Below the pieces are notes generated by a model. That model was not told the DNA's origin and did no database searches. It saw nothing but the letters and a program-made list of their open reading frames with translations. This document shows positions 9,425 through 47,126 of a stretch of DNA of 64,000 nt, piece by piece. The translations under genes were made by a program, and so were the position numbers. The number at the start of each line of letters is the position of its first letter. Position 1 is the stretch's first letter. The stretch is taken from NCBI GenBank assembly GCA_965250035.1, contig OZ252282.1, positions 2,998,536-3,062,535 on the forward strand. Reading direction: 5' to 3'. The stretch comes from Enterobacterales bacterium. GTDB taxonomy: Bacteria > Pseudomonadota > Gammaproteobacteria > Enterobacterales > GCA-2746155.

Positions 9425-9823
9425 GTGCTGACAGGAATCAATCATATAACGATAGCGGTGAGCGATTTAGAGCGCTCGTTATCATTCTATTCGGAAATAC
9501 TCGGCATGACTGCGCATGTGAAATGGCGCAGAGGCGCGTATCTCACCTTGGGTGATGACTGGTTTTGTCTCACGCTGGATGAAGTTGCTCCCGCCCAAGA
9601 TTACAGCCATATTTCGTTTAACATTTCAGAAGAAGATTTCGATGCATTTTCAGCCGCACTTCGTGAAAACAATATTCGGGAATGGAAAGAAAATACCAGT
9701 GAAGGGAAATCACTGTATCTATTGGATCCCGATGGGCATAAACTTGAGGTGCACTCGGGTAGCCTGTCGTCTCGGCTAGATGAACTTCGCAATCGTCCAT
9801 ATGATGGTTTGGAATGGCTATGA
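9425..9823 (+). CDS. fosA: FosA-family fosfomycin-resistance glutathione transferase homolog
   Basis: 132 aa, starting MLTGINHITIAVSDLERSLSFY. Residues corresponding to FosA metal ligands are H7, H62 and E108. Also present are T9, Y39, W46, C48, the K+-loop region KENTSEGKSLYLLDPDGHKLEVH, and R117. GTG start. Confidence 0.85.
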   Translation: MLTGINHITIAVSDLERSLSFYSEILGMTAHVKWRRGAYLTLGDDWFCLTLDEVAPAQDYSHISFNISEEDFDAFSAALRENNIREWKENTSEGKSLYLLDPDGHKLEVHSGSLSSRLDELRNRPYDGLEWL

Positions 9824-38691: not shown

Positions 38692-41292
38692 CTAGAACGG
38701 CAATTCGAGATCCGGTTCGAAACGCAACATCTGCTGACGGAAGACCGCCTTAATGTTGGTCAGATCCTGCTCGGTTTCTGCTTCAAAACGTATTACCAGA
38801 CTAGGAGTGGTATTCGAGGCTCGAACAAGACCCCAGCCCGTTGAATAGTCCACACGAATACCATCGATATCAGTCACCCGTCCGCCGGCAAAATTGCCTT
38901 CCGTAATGAGGGTGTGCACGAATTCGAATTTCTGATCATCAGCCATGTCGAGGTTTAACTCAGGAGTTATTACAGAGTCCGGTAATTTACCGAACACATG
39001 GGCCGATTTTTCGACTTCATTGGATAAGATTTCCAGCATTCTTGCCCCGGAATAGAGTGCATCATCGAAGCCATACCAGCGTTCTTTGAAGAAGATGTGA
39101 CCACTTTGTTCACCCGCCAGTAGAGCGCCGGTCTCTTTCATTTTGGCTTTAATCAGGGAATGACCCGTGCGCCACATAATTGGACGGCCATTGTTACTCT
39201 TAATGGCACGTTGCAGATGTCTGGTACATTTCACATCGAAAATAATATCTGCACCCGGATGACGCGACAGCACATCCTTAGAGAACAGGATCATCTGCCG
39301 GTCGGGCCAGATGATCTTACCTGCTGAGTCGACAACGCCAAGGCGGTCACCGTCGCCATCGAAGGCTAAACCGATATCAGCCTCCTCGCTGAGTACTGCC
39401 TCACGCAGATCCTCAAGGTTCTCCGGCTTGCTGGGATCGGGATGATGATTCGGGAAGTCTCCATCGACATCACAGTACAGACCAATCACCTCGCAGCCAA
39501 GCGCTTGAAACAGAATGGGGGCAACCGAACCCGCGACGCCATTTCCGGCATCGATCACGATCTTCAGGGGTTGGGCCAGCGCCACATCGCCGGTGATGTT
39601 ATTAATATAATCCGCCATGATATCCTGATGCGTCTCTTCACCCGTACCACTGAGCAGATCACGACGTTTAATTCGATTGTAGAGTGCGGTTATGCCATCA
39701 CCATGCAGCGAGTCTCCCGCGATCACGATCTTTAGACCATTGTATTCTGGCGGGTTATGGCTACCTGTCACCATGACCCCAGTCTGAGACTGCAGGTAAT
39801 GGGTCGCAAAATATAGCAGTGGCGTGGGTACTACCCCAATATCGATGACATTTCTGCCCGAGGCCATAATGCCTTCTTTGAGGGCCTCAACCAAGCGGGT
39901 GCCTGACGACCTGCCATCGCGGGCGACAATGACTGACTGCTCGCCTTGATCGAAGGCTTCAGAACCAATCGCCTGGCCGATCCAGCGTACGCCGTCTTCG
40001 GTCAGCGTATCGTCTACGATACCGCGAATATCATAGGCTCGGAAAATCGAAGGCGATACGATATCTTCGTGCTCATGTGCTGACATGCTGTCATCCTGAG
40101 CCAGTTTTTCAGCGGCCTTAGCCTTCGCATCGTCCGAGGTCTCGACGGTTGATGACATGTCTGGTGGCATACCAATTTCACCACTGATCATATCCTGTGG
40201 CATATCGGTCGTGATGCGCTTGTCTTTCTCCTGGGCATCCTGATGTTTCTCGAGACGGACGTTGGCGGTACGTTGCAGTGTATAGGCCATGTCATAGAAA
40301 ATCATTAGAGAGAATGCCTTGGCGGGAACTTCAATCTCACCTTCGGGGTTATCCAGAATCAGTGCCATCAATGCTGAAGCATCTTTGGTCAGGGTCGTAT
40401 TCAATCGGCGGTAGCCGTAGAAGCCGAGAACCGAGACGATAGCAAAAATCATTAATAGTCCGAGCATGAAGATGAACTGCTCTTCACCGGCATCGAAATC
40501 TTCTTCGGGAGAGGGCCAGTAAGCCATCTGCCAGAGCGACTGTTCCAGGCTGGCTATGATGATCGGCTCGCCGACTTTCAGTGCCTGGTCTCCATAGGTA
40601 CCGAGGGTATGGATGGTACCTGAATATTCCTGGCGAAACTCGATGTAGCCTGGAATGGAGCGGATGATGCTCAGTCCGTCATTGATTAACTCGACATCAA
40701 TACCCGCCAGAACATAACCAAGTAATACGCCGTCACTGTCATAGACATTTTCTACCAGGGCGATGTATTCATCGGCCTGCCCGACGCGCACAACCTCCGG
40801 GGGTTGCTTCTTGCCGCGTCCGGAATTACGCAATAATTCCAGGGTAACGTTAGAGATGGGAGGGATCGAACTCATGTCGACATCCAGGGTCCCCACCGGC
40901 ACCAGACGGACACCGATCGCCTTTGGTAAGACGTTGGTCAGAGTCGCTTCGAGTTCCGTGGTATTAGCCTGGGTGGCAATTTCAAAACTCCGAATGACAT
41001 CCGGTGAGCGGGCAATCACTTCCATCCGCTTGCTGACTGCAATGATGCTTGATTCTGCCAGTTCGGCGTAGTTGGAGAAGACCAGATCCAGGTAGCGTTG
41101 ACTACGCTCAATCTCGGGTTGGACGATAGCAAAGTAATACAGGGCGCTGGCGATCAGACCGGTGCTAACAACGATGAACAAATATATCTTACTACTGATA
41201 CTTGCCAGTGTTACCCCGGCACGATGGAGGCGTTGATTACTTTTGGGACTTTGTTCGGCCGTTTCCGGCGCTTTTACCTTCTTTCTCTTCAC
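38692..41292 (-). CDS. algC: Phosphomannomutase/phosphoglucomutase with a ~400 aa N-terminal membrane-associated extension
   Basis: 866 aa. The C-terminal 464 aa run from the internal Met at 40086 (MSAHEHEDIVSPSIFRAYDIRG). They carry TGSHNPPEYNG with the catalytic Ser, and DGDGDR. The N-terminal part has at least 2 TM helices. Confidence 0.9.
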   Translation of the reverse strand: MKRKKVKAPETAEQSPKSNQRLHRAGVTLASISSKIYLFIVVSTGLIASALYYFAIVQPEIERSQRYLDLVFSNYAELAESSIIAVSKRMEVIARSPDVIRSFEIATQANTTELEATLTNVLPKAIGVRLVPVGTLDVDMSSIPPISNVTLELLRNSGRGKKQPPEVVRVGQADEYIALVENVYDSDGVLLGYVLAGIDVELINDGLSIIRSIPGYIEFRQEYSGTIHTLGTYGDQALKVGEPIIIASLEQSLWQMAYWPSPEEDFDAGEEQFIFMLGLLMIFAIVSVLGFYGYRRLNTTLTKDASALMALILDNPEGEIEVPAKAFSLMIFYDMAYTLQRTANVRLEKHQDAQEKDKRITTDMPQDMISGEIGMPPDMSSTVETSDDAKAKAAEKLAQDDSMSAHEHEDIVSPSIFRAYDIRGIVDDTLTEDGVRWIGQAIGSEAFDQGEQSVIVARDGRSSGTRLVEALKEGIMASGRNVIDIGVVPTPLLYFATHYLQSQTGVMVTGSHNPPEYNGLKIVIAGDSLHGDGITALYNRIKRRDLLSGTGEETHQDIMADYINNITGDVALAQPLKIVIDAGNGVAGSVAPILFQALGCEVIGLYCDVDGDFPNHHPDPSKPENLEDLREAVLSEEADIGLAFDGDGDRLGVVDSAGKIIWPDRQMILFSKDVLSRHPGADIIFDVKCTRHLQRAIKSNNGRPIMWRTGHSLIKAKMKETGALLAGEQSGHIFFKERWYGFDDALYSGARMLEILSNEVEKSAHVFGKLPDSVITPELNLDMADDQKFEFVHTLITEGNFAGGRVTDIDGIRVDYSTGWGLVRASNTTPSLVIRFEAETEQDLTNIKAVFRQQMLRFEPDLELPF

Positions 41293-42623: not shown

Positions 42624-43298
42624 ATGACAATTAAAAATCTCCCTCAGGCAGAGCGTCCACGCAGGAAATTGTTACAGCTTGGCGTCACCAGCCTGAGTAA
42701 CGCTGAACTACTGGCCATTTTGATTGGTTCCGGCCGACAGGGTTGCTCTGCGCTGGATATTGGTCATCAACTAATCAAGGACTGGCCTAGTCTGAATGAA
42801 CTCGTCAATGCCGATCTCAATCAATTGCGCACATGTCATGGCGTGAGTCAGGTATTTTACTGTCGCCTGCAGGCTAGTATGGAATTAGCCAGTCGCTGTT
42901 TACAGGAAACGCTTCAGCGTGAAACGACCATTGAAAATCCCGCGACGACACGGCGTTTTCTAATCAGTCGTCTCAGACATCTGAACCATGAGGTATTCGC
43001 CGTACTGTTTCTGGATAATGCACATCGTCTGATTCAGTATGAAGTCTTGTTCGAAGGCACCATCAATGGCGCCAGTGTCTATCCGCGTCGCGTGTTAGAG
43101 CGGGCGATGAAATGGAATGCCGCTGCCGTGATTCTGGCACATAACCATCCATCAGGTATTGCCGAGCCTAGTCAGGCCGATGAGCAGATAACGCAAACGC
43201 TGGTAAAGACATTATCTTTTGTTGATGTACGTGTTCTTGATCATATTATTATCGGTGCCAACAACGCCATCTCATTAGCCGAACGCGGCCTCCTATGA
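42624..43298 (+). CDS. radC: RadC-family JAB-domain protein
   Basis: Starting at 42624 gives MTIKNLPQAERPRRKL. The protein contains SNAELLAILIGSG and the JAMM motif HNHPSG. The track start at 42525 adds a non-conserved leader. Confidence 0.9.
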   Translation: MTIKNLPQAERPRRKLLQLGVTSLSNAELLAILIGSGRQGCSALDIGHQLIKDWPSLNELVNADLNQLRTCHGVSQVFYCRLQASMELASRCLQETLQRETTIENPATTRRFLISRLRHLNHEVFAVLFLDNAHRLIQYEVLFEGTINGASVYPRRVLERAMKWNAAAVILAHNHPSGIAEPSQADEQITQTLVKTLSFVDVRVLDHIIIGANNAISLAERGLL

Positions 43299-43470
43299 CC
43301 CTATTTTATTGTTGCACTCATTCGAAATAGTTTTACTATTCCTTCAATCGTGCGCCTCAAACTAGGCCCATATAAGACGCGTTTATACAAGCGAAGGGCA
43401 TGAATACTATTGTTAAGCACATATGCTAAATTTGTTAAAAAGCAAGAACTGGAGTGCTATTAGAGATGCG

Positions 43471-44385
43471 TTAAGGAATGCTTTTAAGCTCAGGCCTGAA
43501 AGGCAAGTCTTTCGGCTCTTTGATATCCCATACCATCCCGAGTCGATGGAGTAGAAGCAACACGTTCCATCCTAAGTCAACTTCACCTGGATAAATTCCT
43601 AATCTTGCAGATCCAGGATAAGCATGATGATTGTTGTGCCAGCTTTCTCCCATAGTCAATATGGCTGCGAATCGTACATTGTGCCCTTGGATACTTGCCC
43701 CTTGAATATGCCAGTGTCTTTTCCCGTGGTTATGTGCGAAGTAGCCAATTAGCCAATGCCCTAAAACAGATACGCATACTCTCATGCATATTCCCCAAAT
43801 CACCCATGTAATTCCTCCTGCAACAAAAAGCAAAATAGCCCAAGGGAGTTGCTGAAACATCCAAGTCTTTTCCATAAATTTATAAACCTTGTCACGAGCA
43901 ATCCTTTCTTCAATTTTAAATACCGGGGGGTTATTAAGCTCTATATCACAGAAAAGTTGCCAGTAGGCGTCTATCATCATAGGCTGCTGGTGGCCGAAGT
44001 AATCATGGCATTTGCTCTGACGTTGTGCCCAATCTCTCATGTCGTGAGTTTTTATCATTCCAAATGGGCCTGCCAATCCTACGATTACCCCTAGATGAAC
44101 TAAGAAGTATTCAAGCCACAGTGGACATTGATAACTGTTATGAATTAGCTTTCGATGCATACCGAGGGAATGACCCAAGCACAAGGATATAGATGTTGAT
44201 ATGGCAAACACTAACAGTGCTTCAAGTGAAAAGGTCATAACTCCACCTATGGCGGATATAGATAACATGCTACCCAACCAAATCAATTTGCTTCTCGATA
44301 GTAGTACTTCTCCAACAAAGGCATTACAGTTGTCTGAATCAATAATACGATTGTTGCTGTAAGGTCCAGTTTCTTCTAGTTTCAT
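43471..44385 (-). CDS. Membrane fatty-acid (acyl-CoA/acyl-lipid) desaturase family protein
   Basis: 304 aa. The His boxes are HSLGMHRKLIH, HNHGKRHWH and WHNNHHAYP. The gene lies in low-GC sequence. Confidence 0.8.
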   Translation of the reverse strand: MKLEETGPYSNNRIIDSDNCNAFVGEVLLSRSKLIWLGSMLSISAIGGVMTFSLEALLVFAISTSISLCLGHSLGMHRKLIHNSYQCPLWLEYFLVHLGVIVGLAGPFGMIKTHDMRDWAQRQSKCHDYFGHQQPMMIDAYWQLFCDIELNNPPVFKIEERIARDKVYKFMEKTWMFQQLPWAILLFVAGGITWVIWGICMRVCVSVLGHWLIGYFAHNHGKRHWHIQGASIQGHNVRFAAILTMGESWHNNHHAYPGSARLGIYPGEVDLGWNVLLLLHRLGMVWDIKEPKDLPFRPELKSIP

Positions 44386-45332
44386 GCTTCACCACCTAAT
44401 TTTTCTGGCGTGATAACCTCATCCAACAAGAATTGAGCCGTCTTACCTACAGCATATTCTTGCAATGGACCAAAATACCAAACTGGATCCAAAAATCTTT
44501 GATAACTTATTTTCAAAGTTACTTTGGTTTCGCTATCACTTAGTGAATCAAAGAATATTTCTGTGCCATGAAGCTTCAGGTAGTTTGATATGTAACTGGT
44601 GTCTTCTAGAAAGCTCGTTCTAATGTAGTTATCCTCAACTTCACTGATTTCTAGTGCCATGCTTCCTTCATGTGTATTTGTGACGAACCATCGATGGTAG
44701 CGGAAATTGATATTGTGAACATCGCCAGGCTCTAATGATTCGGCTTCAATCTGATAAGGCATAGGGAAAATCGATAGAATCCAGTGTCTAGACTTATTCA
44801 ACTCAATGGGCTGTTTTAGTTTAAGTTTAATCTCATCAATCCTTGCGGGAATGACTTTATTAACTTCAACAACATATTCCCGTTCAAAACTCAGCTCTGG
44901 AGTAACTCCCTCAAAAGCACTTAGTAAAATCAGTGTGGGAAGTACTTGCACGTAAGTTTTTCCTTGATGCTTAGTGCCCCTATACCTTTTAATTGCTTCA
45001 ATAAGAAACATGAGCAGTAAGATACTGAAGTAAATCGGCATAAACATTACGACGCATACGAATCCTTCAAATAGTACTACTGAACTTCCGAGCATTATTA
45101 TCAAAGATAGTATGATCAAATTGAGGTATCGCCTTTTCCAATTTTTCTTCGTTTCAAGGGGCTCAATGAAAAGAAGGATAATAGCGACAAGGTATGGAAT
45201 CCCAACATACAATAATGCAGACCGGTCAAAGTCATATTCCGTTAATAATCTGATCAAAAGAGAAATAACTCCGATAGCTCCCAACACGAAAAGGTTTCTA
45301 TTTCTGATTTCCTTGAATTCTTGATTCGCCAT
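44382..45332 (-). CDS. Hypothetical protein with an N-terminal 4-TM domain and a C-terminal soluble domain (possibly SRPBCC-like)
   Basis: 316 aa. It is translationally coupled to the desaturase by an ATGA overlap. The SRPBCC call is only a guess from size and pattern. Confidence 0.5.
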   Translation of the reverse strand: MANQEFKEIRNRNLFVLGAIGVISLLIRLLTEYDFDRSALLYVGIPYLVAIILLFIEPLETKKNWKRRYLNLIILSLIIMLGSSVVLFEGFVCVVMFMPIYFSILLLMFLIEAIKRYRGTKHQGKTYVQVLPTLILLSAFEGVTPELSFEREYVVEVNKVIPARIDEIKLKLKQPIELNKSRHWILSIFPMPYQIEAESLEPGDVHNINFRYHRWFVTNTHEGSMALEISEVEDNYIRTSFLEDTSYISNYLKLHGTEIFFDSLSDSETKVTLKISYQRFLDPVWYFGPLQEYAVGKTAQFLLDEVITPEKLGGEA

Positions 45333-45411
45333 GGTGTTTTGTCCTTTGATGTCTTATCATCTACATTTGAAGAATTTAGTTAATTAACTATTTAGTTAAA
45401 TATATAAATCA

Positions 45412-45753
45412 ATGAGCAGCGTATTTCAAGCATTATCGTCTTCTGTGAGAAGAAAAATTCTGGCCTACTTATCAGAAGCAAGCCTGACAGCCGGTGAAAT
45501 TGCTGAGCGTTTTGAAATTAGCAAGCCAGCATTGTCTAAACACTTAAATATACTCTTGAATGCTGGAGTGATTGCAGCAGAGAAGAAAGGCCAATACGTT
45601 CATTACAGCCTGGTCAAAGAAAATCTATTTGCTTCTATGAATGACTTTCTAGTCGATTTTTGTCCTGAGGGGAAGCCATTGAAAGTTGAAAGTGCTGAAA
45701 TCGCAAAAAAGAAAACAAAGTCATCGAAAAGCATAACTGAACAAAAACGATGA
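45412..45753 (+). CDS. ArsR/SmtB family transcriptional regulator
   Basis: 113 aa. RRKILAYLSEASLTAGEIAERFEISKPALSKHLNIL is a winged HTH. It is divergent from the 45332-43471 operon. Confidence 0.85.
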   Translation: MSSVFQALSSSVRRKILAYLSEASLTAGEIAERFEISKPALSKHLNILLNAGVIAAEKKGQYVHYSLVKENLFASMNDFLVDFCPEGKPLKVESAEIAKKKTKSSKSITEQKR

Positions 45754-46010
45754 TTTAAGTATTCATCTAACAAGGACAATCTTAGACGCGTTAATGGAGC
45801 GAACCGCTTGTAATCCACTGCGCTTTCATTCGATGATGAGTTTATGACGTCCCTGTAAAAGGAAATATTAGTTAGTGTAGACGGTATATCAATGGCCACA
45901 GAAGTTAATATAAATCGAGCTGAAAATAACGTTATTTTTCGCGATCTGGGGCTAGATATCGCCTAATAATTGATGAAGTTAAATAATTGGCTTTAAAAAC
46001 GGTCAATTGC

Positions 46011-46039
46011 TTGCCTCGAAGGGGTCTATCTGGTATAAA
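46011..46039 (+). promoter_or_regulatory. Candidate sigma70 promoter for rpmB-rpmG
   Basis: TTGCCT (46011-46016), a 17 nt spacer, then TATAAA (46034-46039), about 95 nt upstream of the rpmB ATG. Confidence 0.45.
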
Positions 46040-46134
46040 GTGCGCCCTTCCACTCCCTACAGGGTAAATGTATGGGGAAAGTGGTCACAGAATTTTAGAG
46101 TTTGGACTCGGTCGAAGCTAGCGGAGGCAAGAAA

Positions 46135-46371
46135 ATGTCCAGAGTATGTCAAGTAACCGGTAAGAGACCCGTTACAGGAAATAATGTATCACACGCAAAT
46201 AATCGTACGCGCCGTCGATTTTTGCCAAACCTTCACACCCATCGTTTTTGGGTTGAAGACGAAAAGCGTTTCGTTAAACTGCGCCTGTCTGCGAAAGGTA
46301 TGCGTATCGTTGATAAGTTGGGTATTGAAGAAGTGCTCAAGCAGATCCGTGCTCGCGGTGAAAAAGTCTAA
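46135..46371 (+). CDS. rpmB: 50S ribosomal protein L28
   Basis: [33 protein letters not shown], with a GGAGG RBS upstream. The track start at 46102 is too early. Confidence 0.95.
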
Positions 46372-46389
46372 ATAGTAGGAGAATAACCC

Positions 46390-46545
46390 ATGCGTGATAA
46401 AATCAAACTGGTATCAAGTGCAGGCACAGGTCACTTCTACACGACTGACAAGAACAAGAAGAATATGCCTGGTAAGATGGAAATCAAAAAGTACGATCCC
46501 GTGGTACGTAAGCACGTGATGTACAAGGAAGCAAAAATCAAGTAA
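46390..46545 (+). CDS. rpmG: 50S ribosomal protein L33 (not in the ORF track because it is under 60 aa)
   Basis: My own translation gives [51 protein letters not shown] (51 aa). An AGGAG RBS lies upstream. Confidence 0.9.
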
Positions 46546-46571
46546 TTCGCTTTACTTGCCTTCGACTTCTC

Positions 46572-46601
46572 AAAGCCCGTTTCTAACGGGCTTTGTCTTT
46601 T
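46572..46601 (+). terminator. Rho-independent terminator after rpmG
   Basis: AAAGCCCGTT-TCT-AACGGGCTTT followed by GTCTTTT. Confidence 0.8.
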
Positions 46602-46655
46602 ATGGGCGGGCAAAACCTTTTGCTGACGGACCCTTATTACTCCATAATACGTGCC

Positions 46656-47126
46656 ATGGATAAGCGCCTCTTTCTCAATATCGTCATCGTTGCGATTCTT
46701 TCATTTTATCTCATCTTCGGGATCGCCTATCGCGGCCTGTTAGAGGAGTCTGAGCCGGACTTGGCGGAAGATTCCAATTGGGAGCAGCCCTACCTGATTC
46801 CCAAAGGCTGGACGCTCACAGAAATTGAATTTGCACCACAAATCCGCCTGACACCGACTGCTGAGGGTTGGCAAGCAGGGGAGCTGATTTCCACTGAGGT
46901 AGCTGGCCTGGTTGTCAATAATTGGCAGGGATTGGTCATTCAGGATATTGCGTCCTATGACGAGTTGCCAGTCGGCACGACCGTATTGGCATTCGTCGAG
47001 CAGCGCACTGCACCCATTGCCTATCGACTGATTGAGCAGTCCGGTTCGATTCAAATCTATCGTCTGGAAGACAAGAAACTATTCACGCTGCCGCAGGATC
47101 TTAAGCCCGTTATCTGGATAAACTAA
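46656..47126 (+). CDS. Hypothetical membrane-anchored protein
   Basis: The track start at 46593 lies inside the rpmG terminator. The ATG at 46656 gives MDKRLFLNIVIVAILSFYLIFGIAY, a single N-terminal TM helix. The stop overlaps the mutM start. Confidence 0.5.
   Translation: MDKRLFLNIVIVAILSFYLIFGIAYRGLLEESEPDLAEDSNWEQPYLIPKGWTLTEIEFAPQIRLTPTAEGWQAGELISTEVAGLVVNNWQGLVIQDIASYDELPVGTTVLAFVEQRTAPIAYRLIEQSGSIQIYRLEDKKLFTLPQDLKPVIWIN

What the first reader, a model, noticed from the sequence alone, without database searches (positions are those of the whole stretch)
43299..45900. Low-GC three-gene insertion splits the conserved radC-rpmB junction
radC and rpmB-rpmG are normally adjacent. Here about 2.8 kb separates them, and the coding part looks markedly AT-richer than the flanks.

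The insertion carries an ArsR-family regulator (45412..45753). Divergent from it is a two-gene operon: a 4-TM plus soluble-domain protein (44382..45332), translationally coupled by an ATGA overlap to a membrane desaturase with three His boxes (43471..44385).

The 9-mer AGACGCGTT occurs on both sides (43375-43383 and 45784-45792) and brackets exactly these three genes. It may be a target-site or att-like duplication, although a 9-mer match could be chance. I see no recombinase. The module would be a regulator-controlled lipid-modification unit acquired horizontally.
Basis: partly seen in the sequence, partly recalled or inferred. Interest (0 to 1): 0.55.

Follow-up and report, generated by a model that had tools for sequence, protein, structure and literature searches.

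The report
Imported lipid-enzyme gene islet at radC–rpmB
A 2.7-kb piece of foreign DNA sits between two normally adjacent housekeeping genes; it carries a repressor and a two-gene operon for an unusual desaturase-like membrane enzyme and its lipid-binding partner, so it is a real but fairly ordinary horizontal insertion whose cargo is an uncharacterised gene pair.

Summary
radC (stop 43298) and rpmB (start 46135) are 2836 nt apart. In nine related contigs from at least three lineages, and in E. coli, they are 133–216 nt apart in the same gene order.

The insert runs from 43299 to about 45966. It is compositionally foreign:
- GC is 0.39 against 0.49 for the rest of the window.
- GC3 is 0.35–0.40 against a median of 0.56.
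- The dinucleotide signature lies 5.1 SD from the core.
- Codon-usage z-scores are −4.0 to −5.2.

In other hosts the same module matches host GC, and its closest homologues sit in hosts of 36–38% GC.

The cargo is:
- an SdpR-like ArsR-family repressor with no metal sites;
- a protein with four transmembrane helices and a START/Bet v 1 (SRPBCC) domain, with no Pfam family;
- an SCD1-fold desaturase-like protein in which HDxRDWAQR-x3-CH replaces the canonical second His box.

The last two genes are linked in all 61 informative loci. A TAGTTAA-TTAACTA-NN-TAGTTAA operator is 100% conserved across loci and occurs in two gene orders.

The 9-mer is part of a significant 38-nt imperfect direct repeat. 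It lies inside the foreign DNA, so it is not a junction duplication. I found no recombinase, tRNA, plasmid or phage link. Function is inferred, not shown.

The parts
42624..43298 (+). radC (left native flank). The gene callers' start is further upstream; relatives use the 224-aa form.
   Evidence: Pfam RadC 149 bits and NCBIfam PRK00024 246.6 bits. 67-71% identical to RadC of the syntenic relatives.
43299..45966 (.). Foreign insert of about 2.67 kb. The left junction is directly after the radC stop. The right junction is approximate.
   Evidence: It has no counterpart in 9 empty-site relatives. The native rpmB leader resumes at about 45967-45975. GC 0.39, delta* z=5.1, codon-usage z -4.0 to -5.2.
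43357..43395 (+). Left copy of the imperfect direct repeat (core AGACGCGTT at 43375-43383).
   Evidence: 30 identities over 39 columns with the right copy, p=0.0025. The ungapped 23/30 match was reached by 0 of 2000 shuffles. There are only two copies in the window.
43471..44385 (-). SCD1-fold desaturase-like membrane protein (304 aa) with a non-canonical second His box (H114-D-x-R-D-W-A-Q-R ... C126-H127 ... H132).
   Evidence: Pfam FA_desaturase 30.0 bits against a cutoff of 29.7. AlphaFold2 pLDDT 86, and Foldseek to SCD1 4ymk/6wf2/4zyo with TM 0.68-0.73 and E about 1e-10. Motif conservation.
44382..45332 (-). 'Mid' protein (316 aa): four transmembrane helices, an interfacial helix and a C-terminal START/Bet v 1 (SRPBCC) domain. 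Translationally coupled to the desaturase-like gene by the ATGA overlap at 44382-44385.
   Evidence: No Pfam or NCBIfam hit. AlphaFold2 pLDDT 78, pTM 0.70. Foldseek finds Bet v 1/START/StARkin folds with probability 1.00 and E about 2e-6. Distant family members reach Pfam PF10604.
45376..45407 (.). Conserved operator block in the 79-nt divergent promoter region. Half-sites: TAGTTAA (45377-45383), TTAACTA (45384-45390), TT, TAGTTAA (45393-45399).
   Evidence: The 32 nt are 100% identical in at least 10 loci whose proteins are 57-77% identical. Variants occur in L087, L092 and L137. It also lies upstream of the desat-arsR-mid operons of L094, L099 and L107.
45412..45753 (+). SdpR-like ArsR-family transcription factor (113 aa). 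It has no metal-site motifs and carries an invariant C-terminal FCPxG segment (Cys84).
   Evidence: HTH_5 53.6 bits. NF033789 SdpR 85.5 bits, below its cutoff of 100. The closest solved structure is SrnR 7p6f, E=6e-15. Orthologue alignment.
45766..45803 (+). Right copy of the imperfect direct repeat (core at 45784-45792).
45967..46134 (+). Native rpmB promoter and leader (TTGCCT ... TATAAA), conserved in the relatives.
   Evidence: Alignment to L003 and to five metagenome contigs with an identical L28.
46135..46545 (+). rpmB-rpmG (right native flank).
   Evidence: Pfam L28 and L33. L28 is 96-99% identical in the relatives.

Best explanation
A segment of about 2.67 kb (43299 to about 45966) was acquired horizontally from a lower-GC donor, probably a marine gammaproteobacterium. 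It was inserted immediately after the radC stop codon, splitting the ancient radC-rpmB junction.

It carries a self-contained regulated module. An SdpR-like, non-metal ArsR-family repressor most likely binds the triple half-site operator TAGTTAA-TTAACTA-NN-TAGTTAA in the 79-nt divergent promoter region. From there it would repress both its own gene and the two-gene operon.

The operon encodes an integral-membrane enzyme with the stearoyl-CoA desaturase fold and an altered metal-ligand set: His boxes 1 and 3 are kept, and box 2 is replaced by HDxRDWAQR-x3-CH. It also encodes a membrane-anchored START/Bet v 1 protein. By the positive-inside rule, the hydrophobic-ligand pocket of that protein faces the cytoplasm, the same side as the catalytic face of SCD-type enzymes. 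The partner most likely extracts or presents a lipid substrate or product to the enzyme, so the module performs an inducible oxidative modification of a membrane lipid.

Shown here: the insertion, its foreign composition, the folds, the gene linkage and the operator conservation.

Inferred: repression at the operator, the enzyme-partner interaction, the lipid substrate and the chemistry.
For: Insertion:
- 9 of 9 syntenic relatives, from at least three lineages, have radC-rpmB gaps of 133-160 nt. E. coli has 216 nt in the same pyrE-slmA-coaBC-radC-rpmB-rpmG-mutM order.
- Insert GC is 0.39 against 0.49 and GC3 is 0.35-0.40 against 0.56. Delta* z=5.1 and codon-usage z is -4.0 to -5.2.
- In 17 other hosts the module's GC tracks the host (difference -0.064 to +0.016). 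The closest homologues sit in hosts of 36-38% GC.
- The same module occurs at unrelated genomic sites.

Module:
- mid is followed by a co-directional desaturase-like gene in 56 of 61 loci. In the other 5 the desaturase-like gene lies upstream.
- The ATGA overlap couples the two genes translationally.
- The enzyme has the SCD1 fold, TM 0.68-0.73. The partner has the START/Bet v 1 fold, and family members reach PF10604.
- One natural protein fuses the mid architecture to a PEMT-like phospholipid methyltransferase.
- The operator is 100% identical over 32 nt across loci whose proteins are 57-77% identical. It is kept in both the divergent and the co-directional gene order.
- The regulator is more conserved (58-89%) than the enzymes.
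Against: - No activity, substrate, metal content, DNA binding or protein-protein contact has been measured.
- The canonical HxxHH second His box is missing in all 60 linked homologues. Classical diiron desaturation is therefore not assured, and the protein could have different chemistry or be non-catalytic.
- No electron-donor gene is in the module.
- Only 16 of 77 mid loci carry the ArsR-like gene, so the regulator is an optional add-on.
- Desaturase-like homologues also occur without mid.
- The transfer vector and mechanism are unknown. There is no recombinase within ±10 kb, no tRNA and no plasmid or phage carrier.
- The nearest empty-site relatives are only about 70% identical in their flanking proteins, so the right junction is approximate.
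Confidence: 0.6

Rival explanations
1. The module is ancestral at this site and was deleted in the relatives. The low GC would then reflect the membrane-protein and AT-rich nature of the genes rather than foreign origin.
For: The available relatives are distant, at 67-86% identity in the flanking proteins, so several losses are not impossible. The module's proteins are about as diverged from their nearest homologues (72-77%) as the housekeeping proteins are from theirs.
Against: - At least three lineages and E. coli all lack it, with tight 133-216-nt gaps and an intact rpmB promoter about 38 nt after radC.
- Module GC tracks host GC in 17 other hosts over a range of 0.36-0.70, so low GC is not intrinsic to the genes.
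- GC3, codon usage and dinucleotide signature all lie outside the host range.
- The module sits at unrelated loci elsewhere.
Confidence: 0.04
2. The module is mainly an SdpR/SdpI-type signalling circuit. The membrane START protein would sense a hydrophobic ligand and sequester the SdpR-like repressor at the membrane to derepress the operon. The desaturase-like protein would be the output, or a non-catalytic scaffold.
For: - The regulator's best NCBIfam match is the SdpR autorepressor subfamily, 85.5 bits.
- The SdpI-SdpR sequestration paradigm and its operon linkage are documented (PMC2910880).
- The closest solved relative, SrnR, is deposited as a transcriptional regulator. That it works with a partner protein, SrnQ, is from my own knowledge.
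- In L094, L099, L101 and L107 the regulator gene lies between desat and mid in one operon.
- The START domain is predicted to be cytoplasmic, where it could reach the regulator.
- The regulator has no metal-site motifs.
Against: - mid is not an SdpI family member: there is no PF13630 hit even at E≤1.
- The SdpR score is below the curated cutoff of 100.
- Only 16 of 77 mid loci have the regulator, so sequestering it cannot be mid's primary role.
- mid is always linked to the enzyme, not to the regulator.
Confidence: 0.15
3. The repressor senses directly through its single invariant cysteine (Cys84, FCPxG) by oxidation or by adducts with lipid-derived electrophiles. The module would then be a membrane oxidative-damage response.
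For: - Cys84 and the surrounding C-terminal motif are invariant in 14 orthologues down to 58% identity.
- The recurrent neighbours in ArsR-less loci are redox and membrane genes: DCC1-like thiol-disulfide oxidoreductase, DoxX, DUF2269 and SDR/epimerase. The P0205 locus also has MsrB and flavodoxin-like genes.
- One-Cys thiol-switch repressors are an established class, for example OhrR (my own knowledge).
Against: This is purely sequence-based. The conserved segment could instead be a dimerisation or partner-binding helix. No peroxidase or repair enzyme is in the module.
Confidence: 0.15
4. The 38-nt direct repeats are attL/attR-like sites of a small site-specifically recombining cassette. A recombinase encoded elsewhere moved exactly the three genes.
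For: - The repeat is statistically real, occurs only twice in the window, is in direct orientation and brackets exactly the three genes.
- Its core is near-palindromic (TAA-G-ACGCGT-TTA).
Against: - Both copies lie inside the foreign DNA, 58 nt and about 163 nt from the junctions defined by the empty sites.
- The relatives' empty sites contain no copy.
- Other module copies lack the motif on their flanks.
- There is no recombinase within ±10 kb, no tRNA, and no plasmid or phage carrier.
- The by-eye match to the XerC/XerD dif arms is poor.
Confidence: 0.15

Closest known systems
Stearoyl-CoA (Δ9 acyl-CoA) desaturase, SCD1 (PDB 4ymk, 4zyo, 6wf2); bacterial DesC/DesB-type 'acyl-CoA desaturases'
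   Same: - The whole-chain fold matches, TM 0.68-0.73.
- His box 1 (HRKLIH), the TM4 histidine (AH218N) and box 3 in the typical GE-x-WHNNHHA(F/Y)P context are all present.
- It has four transmembrane helices and is about 300 aa.
- NCBI names its homologues 'acyl-CoA desaturase'.
   Different: - The canonical box 2 (HRxHH) is absent in all 60 linked homologues. It is replaced by the invariant HDxRDWAQR-x3-CH-x4-H.
- Sequence similarity to SCD1 is marginal, phmmer E=1.3e-3 at 16-18% identity.
- The Pfam score is only just at threshold.
- There is no cytochrome b5 or ferredoxin partner gene.
- It has an obligate-looking START-domain partner gene.
SRPBCC / Bet v 1 / START superfamily (for example the Lam4 StARkin domain 5yqj, plant cytokinin-binding protein 2flh, MSMEG_0129 5z8o, Pfam PF10604 Polyketide_cyc2)
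   Same: The C-terminal 150-307 segment has the β-α-α-β6-α helix-grip fold. Distant family members reach PF10604. The superfamily binds large hydrophobic ligands (PMC2577659).
   Different: - It is fused to a conserved 4-TM domain with its own invariant polar residues (R28, E89, C93, P99, Y101).
- The window protein matches no Pfam or NCBIfam model.
- It is genetically tied to a desaturase-like enzyme.
SdpR-SdpI autorepressor and membrane-sequestration circuit of Bacillus subtilis
   Same: An SdpR-like winged-helix repressor is encoded next to a polytopic membrane protein. It lacks metal sites. Autoregulation is implied by the operator lying directly in front of its own gene.
   Different: - The membrane partner is not an SdpI homologue.
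- There is no toxin gene.
- The regulator scores below the SdpR subfamily cutoff, 85.5 against 100.
- It has a unique invariant FCPxG tail.
- The regulator is present in only about a fifth of the loci.
Small integrase-less genomic islets (strain-specific 'indel' cassettes in conserved intergenic regions)
   Same: It has foreign composition, empty sites in relatives, an insertion directly after a stop codon that leaves the downstream promoter intact, and no mobility genes.
   Different: It carries an internal pair of significant 38-nt direct repeats that bracket the cargo and are not at the junctions.

Membership tests
ArsR/SmtB family transcription factors | Winged helix-turn-helix of the HTH_5/HTH_20 type | tested here: met
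   PF01022 scores 53.6 bits (cutoff 22) and PF12840 scores 51.2 bits. NF033788 scores 75.1 bits (cutoff 55).
ArsR/SmtB family transcription factors | A metal- or metalloid-sensing site (α3 CXC, α3N or α5 His/Asp/Glu cluster) | tested here: not met
   The 14-orthologue alignment shows one invariant Cys (C84, C-terminal tail), no CXC motif and no α5 DxHx10Hx2E-type cluster. All metal-specific NCBIfam equivalogs score far below their cutoffs.
SdpR autorepressor subfamily (NF033789) | Score above the curated subfamily cutoff | tested here: not met
   85.5 bits against a cutoff of 100. It is still the best-scoring NCBIfam model.
SdpR autorepressor subfamily (NF033789) | An adjacent SdpI-family membrane partner | tested here: not met
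   The mid protein has no SdpI or other Pfam hit at E≤0.01. None appears among the matches of the 35 family members at E≤1.
Membrane fatty-acid desaturase / SCD-like (PF00487; acyl-CoA Δ9 desaturase) | SCD-type four-helix membrane fold with a cytosolic cap | tested here: met
   AlphaFold2 pLDDT 86.4, pTM 0.83. Foldseek matches 4ymk, 6wf2 and 4zyo with TM 0.68-0.73, E from 2.5e-10 to 1.3e-9 and probability 1.00. The next hit has E=0.2.
Membrane fatty-acid desaturase / SCD-like (PF00487; acyl-CoA Δ9 desaturase) | Pfam gathering threshold | tested here: inconclusive
   30.0 bits against a cutoff of 29.7. Many close homologues have no precomputed PF00487 hit.
Membrane fatty-acid desaturase / SCD-like (PF00487; acyl-CoA Δ9 desaturase) | His box 1 (HxxxxH) and His box 3 (HxxHH) | tested here: met
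   H77-RKLI-H82 and H250-NN-H253-H254 are invariant in the 24-sequence alignment. Box 1 is present in 60 of 60 linked homologues. Each of the 60 has exactly one HxxHH, taken to be box 3; 55 of the 60 have it as HNNHH.
Membrane fatty-acid desaturase / SCD-like (PF00487; acyl-CoA Δ9 desaturase) | His box 2 (HxxHH), which supplies three of the nine diiron His ligands | tested here: not met
   All 60 linked homologues contain exactly one HxxHH motif, taken to be box 3. The SCD1 alignment places (Q/K/R)-x-x-C126-H127, or S-K-C-H-D, opposite HRAHH.
Membrane fatty-acid desaturase / SCD-like (PF00487; acyl-CoA Δ9 desaturase) | O2-dependent desaturase activity on an acyl substrate | not testable with these tools
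   This needs lipidomics or an enzyme assay.
DesA family fatty acid desaturase (NF049918 equivalog) | Score above the equivalog cutoff over the full length | tested here: not met
   47.6 bits against a cutoff of 400. Only residues 168-285 match.
SRPBCC / Bet v 1 / START superfamily | Helix-grip fold (β-α-α-β6-α) enclosing a hydrophobic pocket | tested here: met
   DSSP of the model shows E152-161, H165-172, H184-187, six strands and H284-307. The Foldseek top 50 are all Bet v 1/START/PYL/cyclase folds, with probability 1.00, E from 2e-6 to 6e-5 and TMt up to 0.69.
SRPBCC / Bet v 1 / START superfamily | Sequence-profile membership (PF10604, PF08327 and similar) | tested here: inconclusive
   The window protein has no hit. 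Family members do: P0385 scores 28.6 bits against a cutoff of 27.4, and P0369 scores 27.1 bits.
Integrative genomic island / mobile element | Empty site in relatives plus deviant composition | tested here: met
Integrative genomic island / mobile element | Integrase or transposase gene, or a tRNA/tmRNA target | tested here: not met
   There are no such Pfam families within ±10 kb, no tRNA or tmRNA in the 64 kb and no Rfam hit in 43000-46700.
Integrative genomic island / mobile element | Direct repeats at the junctions (target-site duplication or att core) | tested here: inconclusive
   A significant 38-nt direct repeat exists, but it lies inside the insert. No copy is found in the relatives' empty sites.

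The most novel reading that the evidence does not exclude
The mid and desaturase-like pair is an uncharacterised, widespread two-component membrane enzyme; the mid family alone has about 800 clusters at 50% identity. An SCD-fold protein with a rebuilt metal centre (seven of the nine canonical His, plus an invariant Cys and an HDxRD motif) would perform a lipid modification other than classical Δ9 desaturation, on a substrate handed over by a membrane-anchored START domain. In a subset of lineages the pair would be wired to an SdpR-like repressor through partner sequestration or a one-Cys thiol switch, making it a lipid-sensing regulatory circuit.
Probability: 0.2. Interest if true: 0.65.

Novelty: new variant of a known kind. 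Interest (0 to 1): 0.4.

Why it matters
As a genomic event it is a clean, well-controlled example of an integrase-less islet dropped into one of the most conserved gene junctions of Gammaproteobacteria without disturbing the rpmB promoter. That is useful but not surprising.

The cargo is more interesting. It exposes a tightly linked gene pair with no family description. One member is an SCD-fold enzyme that lacks the second His box thought to be essential for the diiron site. The other is a transmembrane START protein with no Pfam model.

The module also has an unusually well-defined regulator-operator pair, which makes it experimentally tractable. If the enzyme is active, it would widen the known ligand chemistry of membrane desaturase-like enzymes. 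It would also give a bacterial example of a START-domain lipid chaperone dedicated to a membrane enzyme.

Tried and rejected
- The bare 9-mer as evidence: rejected as weak, P=0.22 by shuffles. It was replaced by the extended repeat.
- The repeat as a target-site duplication: rejected, because both copies lie inside the foreign DNA and the empty sites contain no copy.
- A duplicated radC 3' end at the right junction: local alignment of the last 200 nt of radC against the right flank was no better than shuffles, p=1.0.
- The left flank as a decayed copy of the rpmB promoter: MAFFT suggested it, but it is not significant, with left flank against the L003 intergenic region at p=0.72.
- The repeats as dif/XerCD-like sites: a by-eye comparison gave 7/11 for the XerC arm and only 4-5/11 for the XerD arm. 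Not pursued.
- Terminator and promoter scans of the insert gave nothing above shuffle expectation. One strand folding failed on the length limit and was not repeated.
- Rfam and tRNA searches were empty.
- Defence (PADLOC) and phage (PHROGs) libraries gave only generic wHTH matches.
- Plasmid and phage collections held no carrier.
- Organism name: cluster look-ups returned no names. The source is an unnamed 3.59-Mb genome whose closest relatives here include an Alteromonadales MAG.
- The genome-contig scan with RadC gave only one useful relative. Exact look-up of L33 was far more productive.
- Literature searches found no description of this gene combination.
- N-terminally extended mid homologues as ArsR fusions: not supported, with no HTH domains found.


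Full report
OBSERVATION

- a 304-aa protein at 43471..44385(-);
- a 316-aa protein at 44382..45332(-), whose stop overlaps the next start in ATGA (44382-44385);
- a divergent 113-aa protein at 45412..45753(+).

They lie between radC (Pfam RadC, 149 bits) and rpmB-rpmG (L28 and L33). The radC stop (43298) and the rpmB start (46135) are 2836 nt apart.

IS IT AN INSERTION?

A RadC-based genome scan gave one close relative, L003, an Alteromonadales MAG. It has the same PGM-coaBC-radC-rpmB-rpmG-orf-mutM-exbD order and a radC-rpmB gap of only 160 nt.

Exact look-up of the window's L33 protein returned nine further syntenic contigs; one of them, L145, is the same contig as L003. They represent at least three lineages. 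Their flanking proteins are 67-86% identical to the window's, L28 is 96-99% identical, and their GC is 0.44-0.47. All have gaps of 133-160 nt and no module.

An annotated E. coli chromosome shows pyrE-slmA-dut-coaBC-radC-(216 nt)-rpmB-rpmG-mutM, so the junction is ancient.

In the relatives the rpmB -35 element starts about 38 nt after the radC stop. In the window the conserved leader resumes at about 45967-45975. The foreign segment is therefore 43299 to about 45966, roughly 2.67 kb, inserted directly after the radC stop.

COMPOSITION

- Insert GC is 0.390 against 0.486 for the rest of the window.
- GC3 of the three genes is 0.345-0.398 against a window median of 0.555. Outside the first ~10.7 kb of the window, no other gene of at least 100 aa falls below 0.43.
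- The dinucleotide signature distance to the core is 108.6, against 42.1±13.0 with a maximum of 80 (z=5.1).
- The synonymous-codon log-likelihoods of all three genes fall below those of all 33 host genes, with z of -4.0 to -5.2.

Low GC is not intrinsic to these genes. In 17 other hosts with GC from 0.36 to 0.70, the module's GC differs from its flanks by only -0.064 to +0.016. The closest homologues (69-77% identity) sit in hosts of 36-38% GC.

Horizontal acquisition from a lower-GC donor is strongly supported. The alternative, ancestral presence with repeated loss, is not.

THE REPEAT

AGACGCGTT occurs only at 43375 and 45784. A shared 9-mer between the two intergenic stretches arises in 22% of shuffles.

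It is, however, the core of a longer imperfect direct repeat, 43357-43395 and 45766-45803, with 30 identities over 39 columns and one gap. Local-alignment shuffles give p=0.0025. The ungapped 23/30 match was reached by 0 of 2000 shuffles. There is no third copy in the window.

It brackets exactly the three genes. Even so, both copies lie inside the foreign DNA, 58 nt and about 163 nt from the junctions. The empty sites contain no copy, and other module copies lack it on their flanks.

There is also:
- no recombinase within ±10 kb;
- no tRNA or tmRNA in the window;
- no Rfam match in 43000-46700;
- no plasmid or phage carrier.

It is thus not a target-site duplication of this insertion. It may be a scar of an earlier mobilisation in the donor. 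Its origin remains unexplained.

THE CARGO

(i) The regulator is an ArsR-family winged-helix protein (HTH_5, 53.6 bits).
- Its best NCBIfam match is the SdpR autorepressor subfamily, at 85.5 bits against a cutoff of 100.
- The closest solved structure is SrnR, 7p6f, E=6e-15.
- Fourteen orthologues (58-89% identity) have no classical metal-site motifs. They share an invariant C-terminal segment, NL-x2-S-x2-DF-x3-FCPxG-x3-K-ES, with one invariant Cys.

(ii) The middle protein has no Pfam or NCBIfam family.
- An AlphaFold2 model (pLDDT 78, pTM 0.70) has four long transmembrane helices, a short interfacial helix and a β-α-α-β6-α domain.
- Foldseek assigns that domain to Bet v 1/START/StARkin/polyketide-cyclase folds, with probability 1.00, E about 2e-6 and TMt up to 0.69.
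- Distant family members reach Pfam PF10604.
- Positively charged segments at the N-terminus and after TM4 place the START domain in the cytoplasm. This is an inference from the positive-inside rule.
- The TM domain has its own invariant polar residues, including R28, E89, C93, P99 and Y101.
- The family has 818 representatives at 50% identity with E≤1e-3.

(iii) The third protein only just reaches Pfam FA_desaturase, 30.0 bits against 29.7.
- Its model (pLDDT 86) clearly has the SCD1 fold, TM 0.68-0.73 and E about 1e-10.
- It keeps His box 1 (HRKLIH), the TM4 histidine and box 3 (GESWHNNHHAYP).
- The HRxHH box 2 of SCD1 aligns to (Q/K/R)-x-x-C126-H127.
- All 60 mid-linked homologues contain exactly one HxxHH (box 3). 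They carry the signature HDxRDWAQR-x3-CH instead of box 2.

'Three His boxes' is therefore not correct. This is a defined non-canonical subfamily that NCBI currently labels 'acyl-CoA desaturase'.

LINKAGE

Of 61 metagenome or genome loci with room downstream of mid, 56 have the desaturase-like gene immediately downstream and co-directional. In the other 5 it lies upstream, in a desat-arsR-mid operon.

The converse does not hold. Two desaturase-like homologues with the same variant motif have no mid nearby. The enzyme is therefore the core, and mid is an accessory that never occurs without it.

One natural protein, P0369, fuses the mid architecture to a PEMT-like phospholipid methyltransferase. 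This independently points to membrane lipids.

The ArsR-like gene accompanies the pair in 16 of 77 loci.

OPERATOR

The 79-nt divergent promoter region contains TAGTTAA-TTAACTA-TT-TAGTTAA at 45377-45399.
- A 32-nt block (45376-45407) is 100% identical in at least 10 loci whose proteins are only 57-77% identical.
- Variant forms occur in the more distant L087, L092 and L137.
- The same motif lies just upstream of the desat start in the co-directional operons of L094, L099 and L107.

Non-coding sequence conserved more strongly than the genes, and retained across two gene orders, is good comparative evidence for a repressor-operator pair. Binding itself has not been shown.

MECHANISM (INFERRED)

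The repressor occupies the operator and shuts off both promoters. An unknown signal relieves repression. Two candidates are:
- sequestration by the membrane START protein, by analogy with SdpI-SdpR (PMC2910880);
- a thiol switch at Cys84.

The operon then yields an SCD-fold metalloenzyme and a START-domain partner that shuttles a hydrophobic substrate between the bilayer and the active site. The outcome would be an oxidative lipid modification.

The altered ligand set means the chemistry may differ from Δ9 desaturation, or the protein may not be catalytic.

COMPARISON AND NOVELTY

The event is an ordinary integrase-less islet. The cargo is a new variant of membrane desaturase systems:
- an SCD fold without box 2;
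- an obligate-looking transmembrane START partner with no family model;
- an SdpR-like regulator with a sharply defined operator.

No paper in the searchable library describes this combination.

VERDICT

Interest is moderate, at 0.4.

Noticed in passing
window 234-7293 (weaker to ~10764): A second, larger foreign-looking stretch. It is a run of small same-strand ORFs with GC3 of 0.24-0.36 and a dinucleotide distance of 80-117, against 42±13 for the core. Pfam recognises only LysE (3442-4068), RraB (4734-5129), AAA_33 kinase (6775-7293) and a glyoxalase (9425-9823). There is no tRNA in the window.
   Followed up: partly
L142 6341-6790 and L148 6341-6790: Two related genomes carry an IS200-type Y1 transposase gene between rpmG and the orf151/mutM pair. 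The same ribosomal-protein neighbourhood has therefore been hit by an independent insertion.
   Followed up: no
L086 5929-6879 and 6876-7778: Two tandem, overlapping desaturase-like paralogues follow the mid gene. The second has a slightly altered motif, HDIRDWTQRQ.
   Followed up: no
P0369 (L153 715-3063, L154 168-2516): A 782-aa protein fuses the mid architecture (4 TM plus SRPBCC) to a PEMT-like phospholipid methyltransferase domain. Other methyltransferase genes flank it.
   Followed up: partly
L060-L062, L086, L150 flanks: Loci without the ArsR-like gene repeatedly carry DoxX_3, DUF2269, DCC1-like thiol-disulfide oxidoreductase, saccharopine-dehydrogenase-like and epimerase+DUF1731 genes near the pair. 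This hints at a larger membrane and redox gene neighbourhood.
   Followed up: partly
L049 9986-10531 and L151 3424-3972: A NADAR-domain gene sits directly beside the desaturase-like gene in two unrelated hosts, one with mid and one without.
   Followed up: no
window 38692-41292 (-): The phosphoglucomutase/phosphomannomutase is 866 aa. Its N-terminal extension of about 400 aa is conserved in length in all the syntenic relatives (864-865 aa).
   Followed up: no
window 46593-47126 (+): The ORF between rpmG and mutM (174-177 aa) has no Pfam or NCBIfam family. It is far less conserved (51-55% identity) than its neighbours in the relatives, and E. coli has no gene at this position.
   Followed up: no
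window 45400-45412: The arsR-like ATG is preceded by no recognisable Shine-Dalgarno sequence. A TATAAA hexamer ends 4-5 nt upstream, so the regulator mRNA may be leaderless. This comes from reading the sequence only.
   Followed up: no
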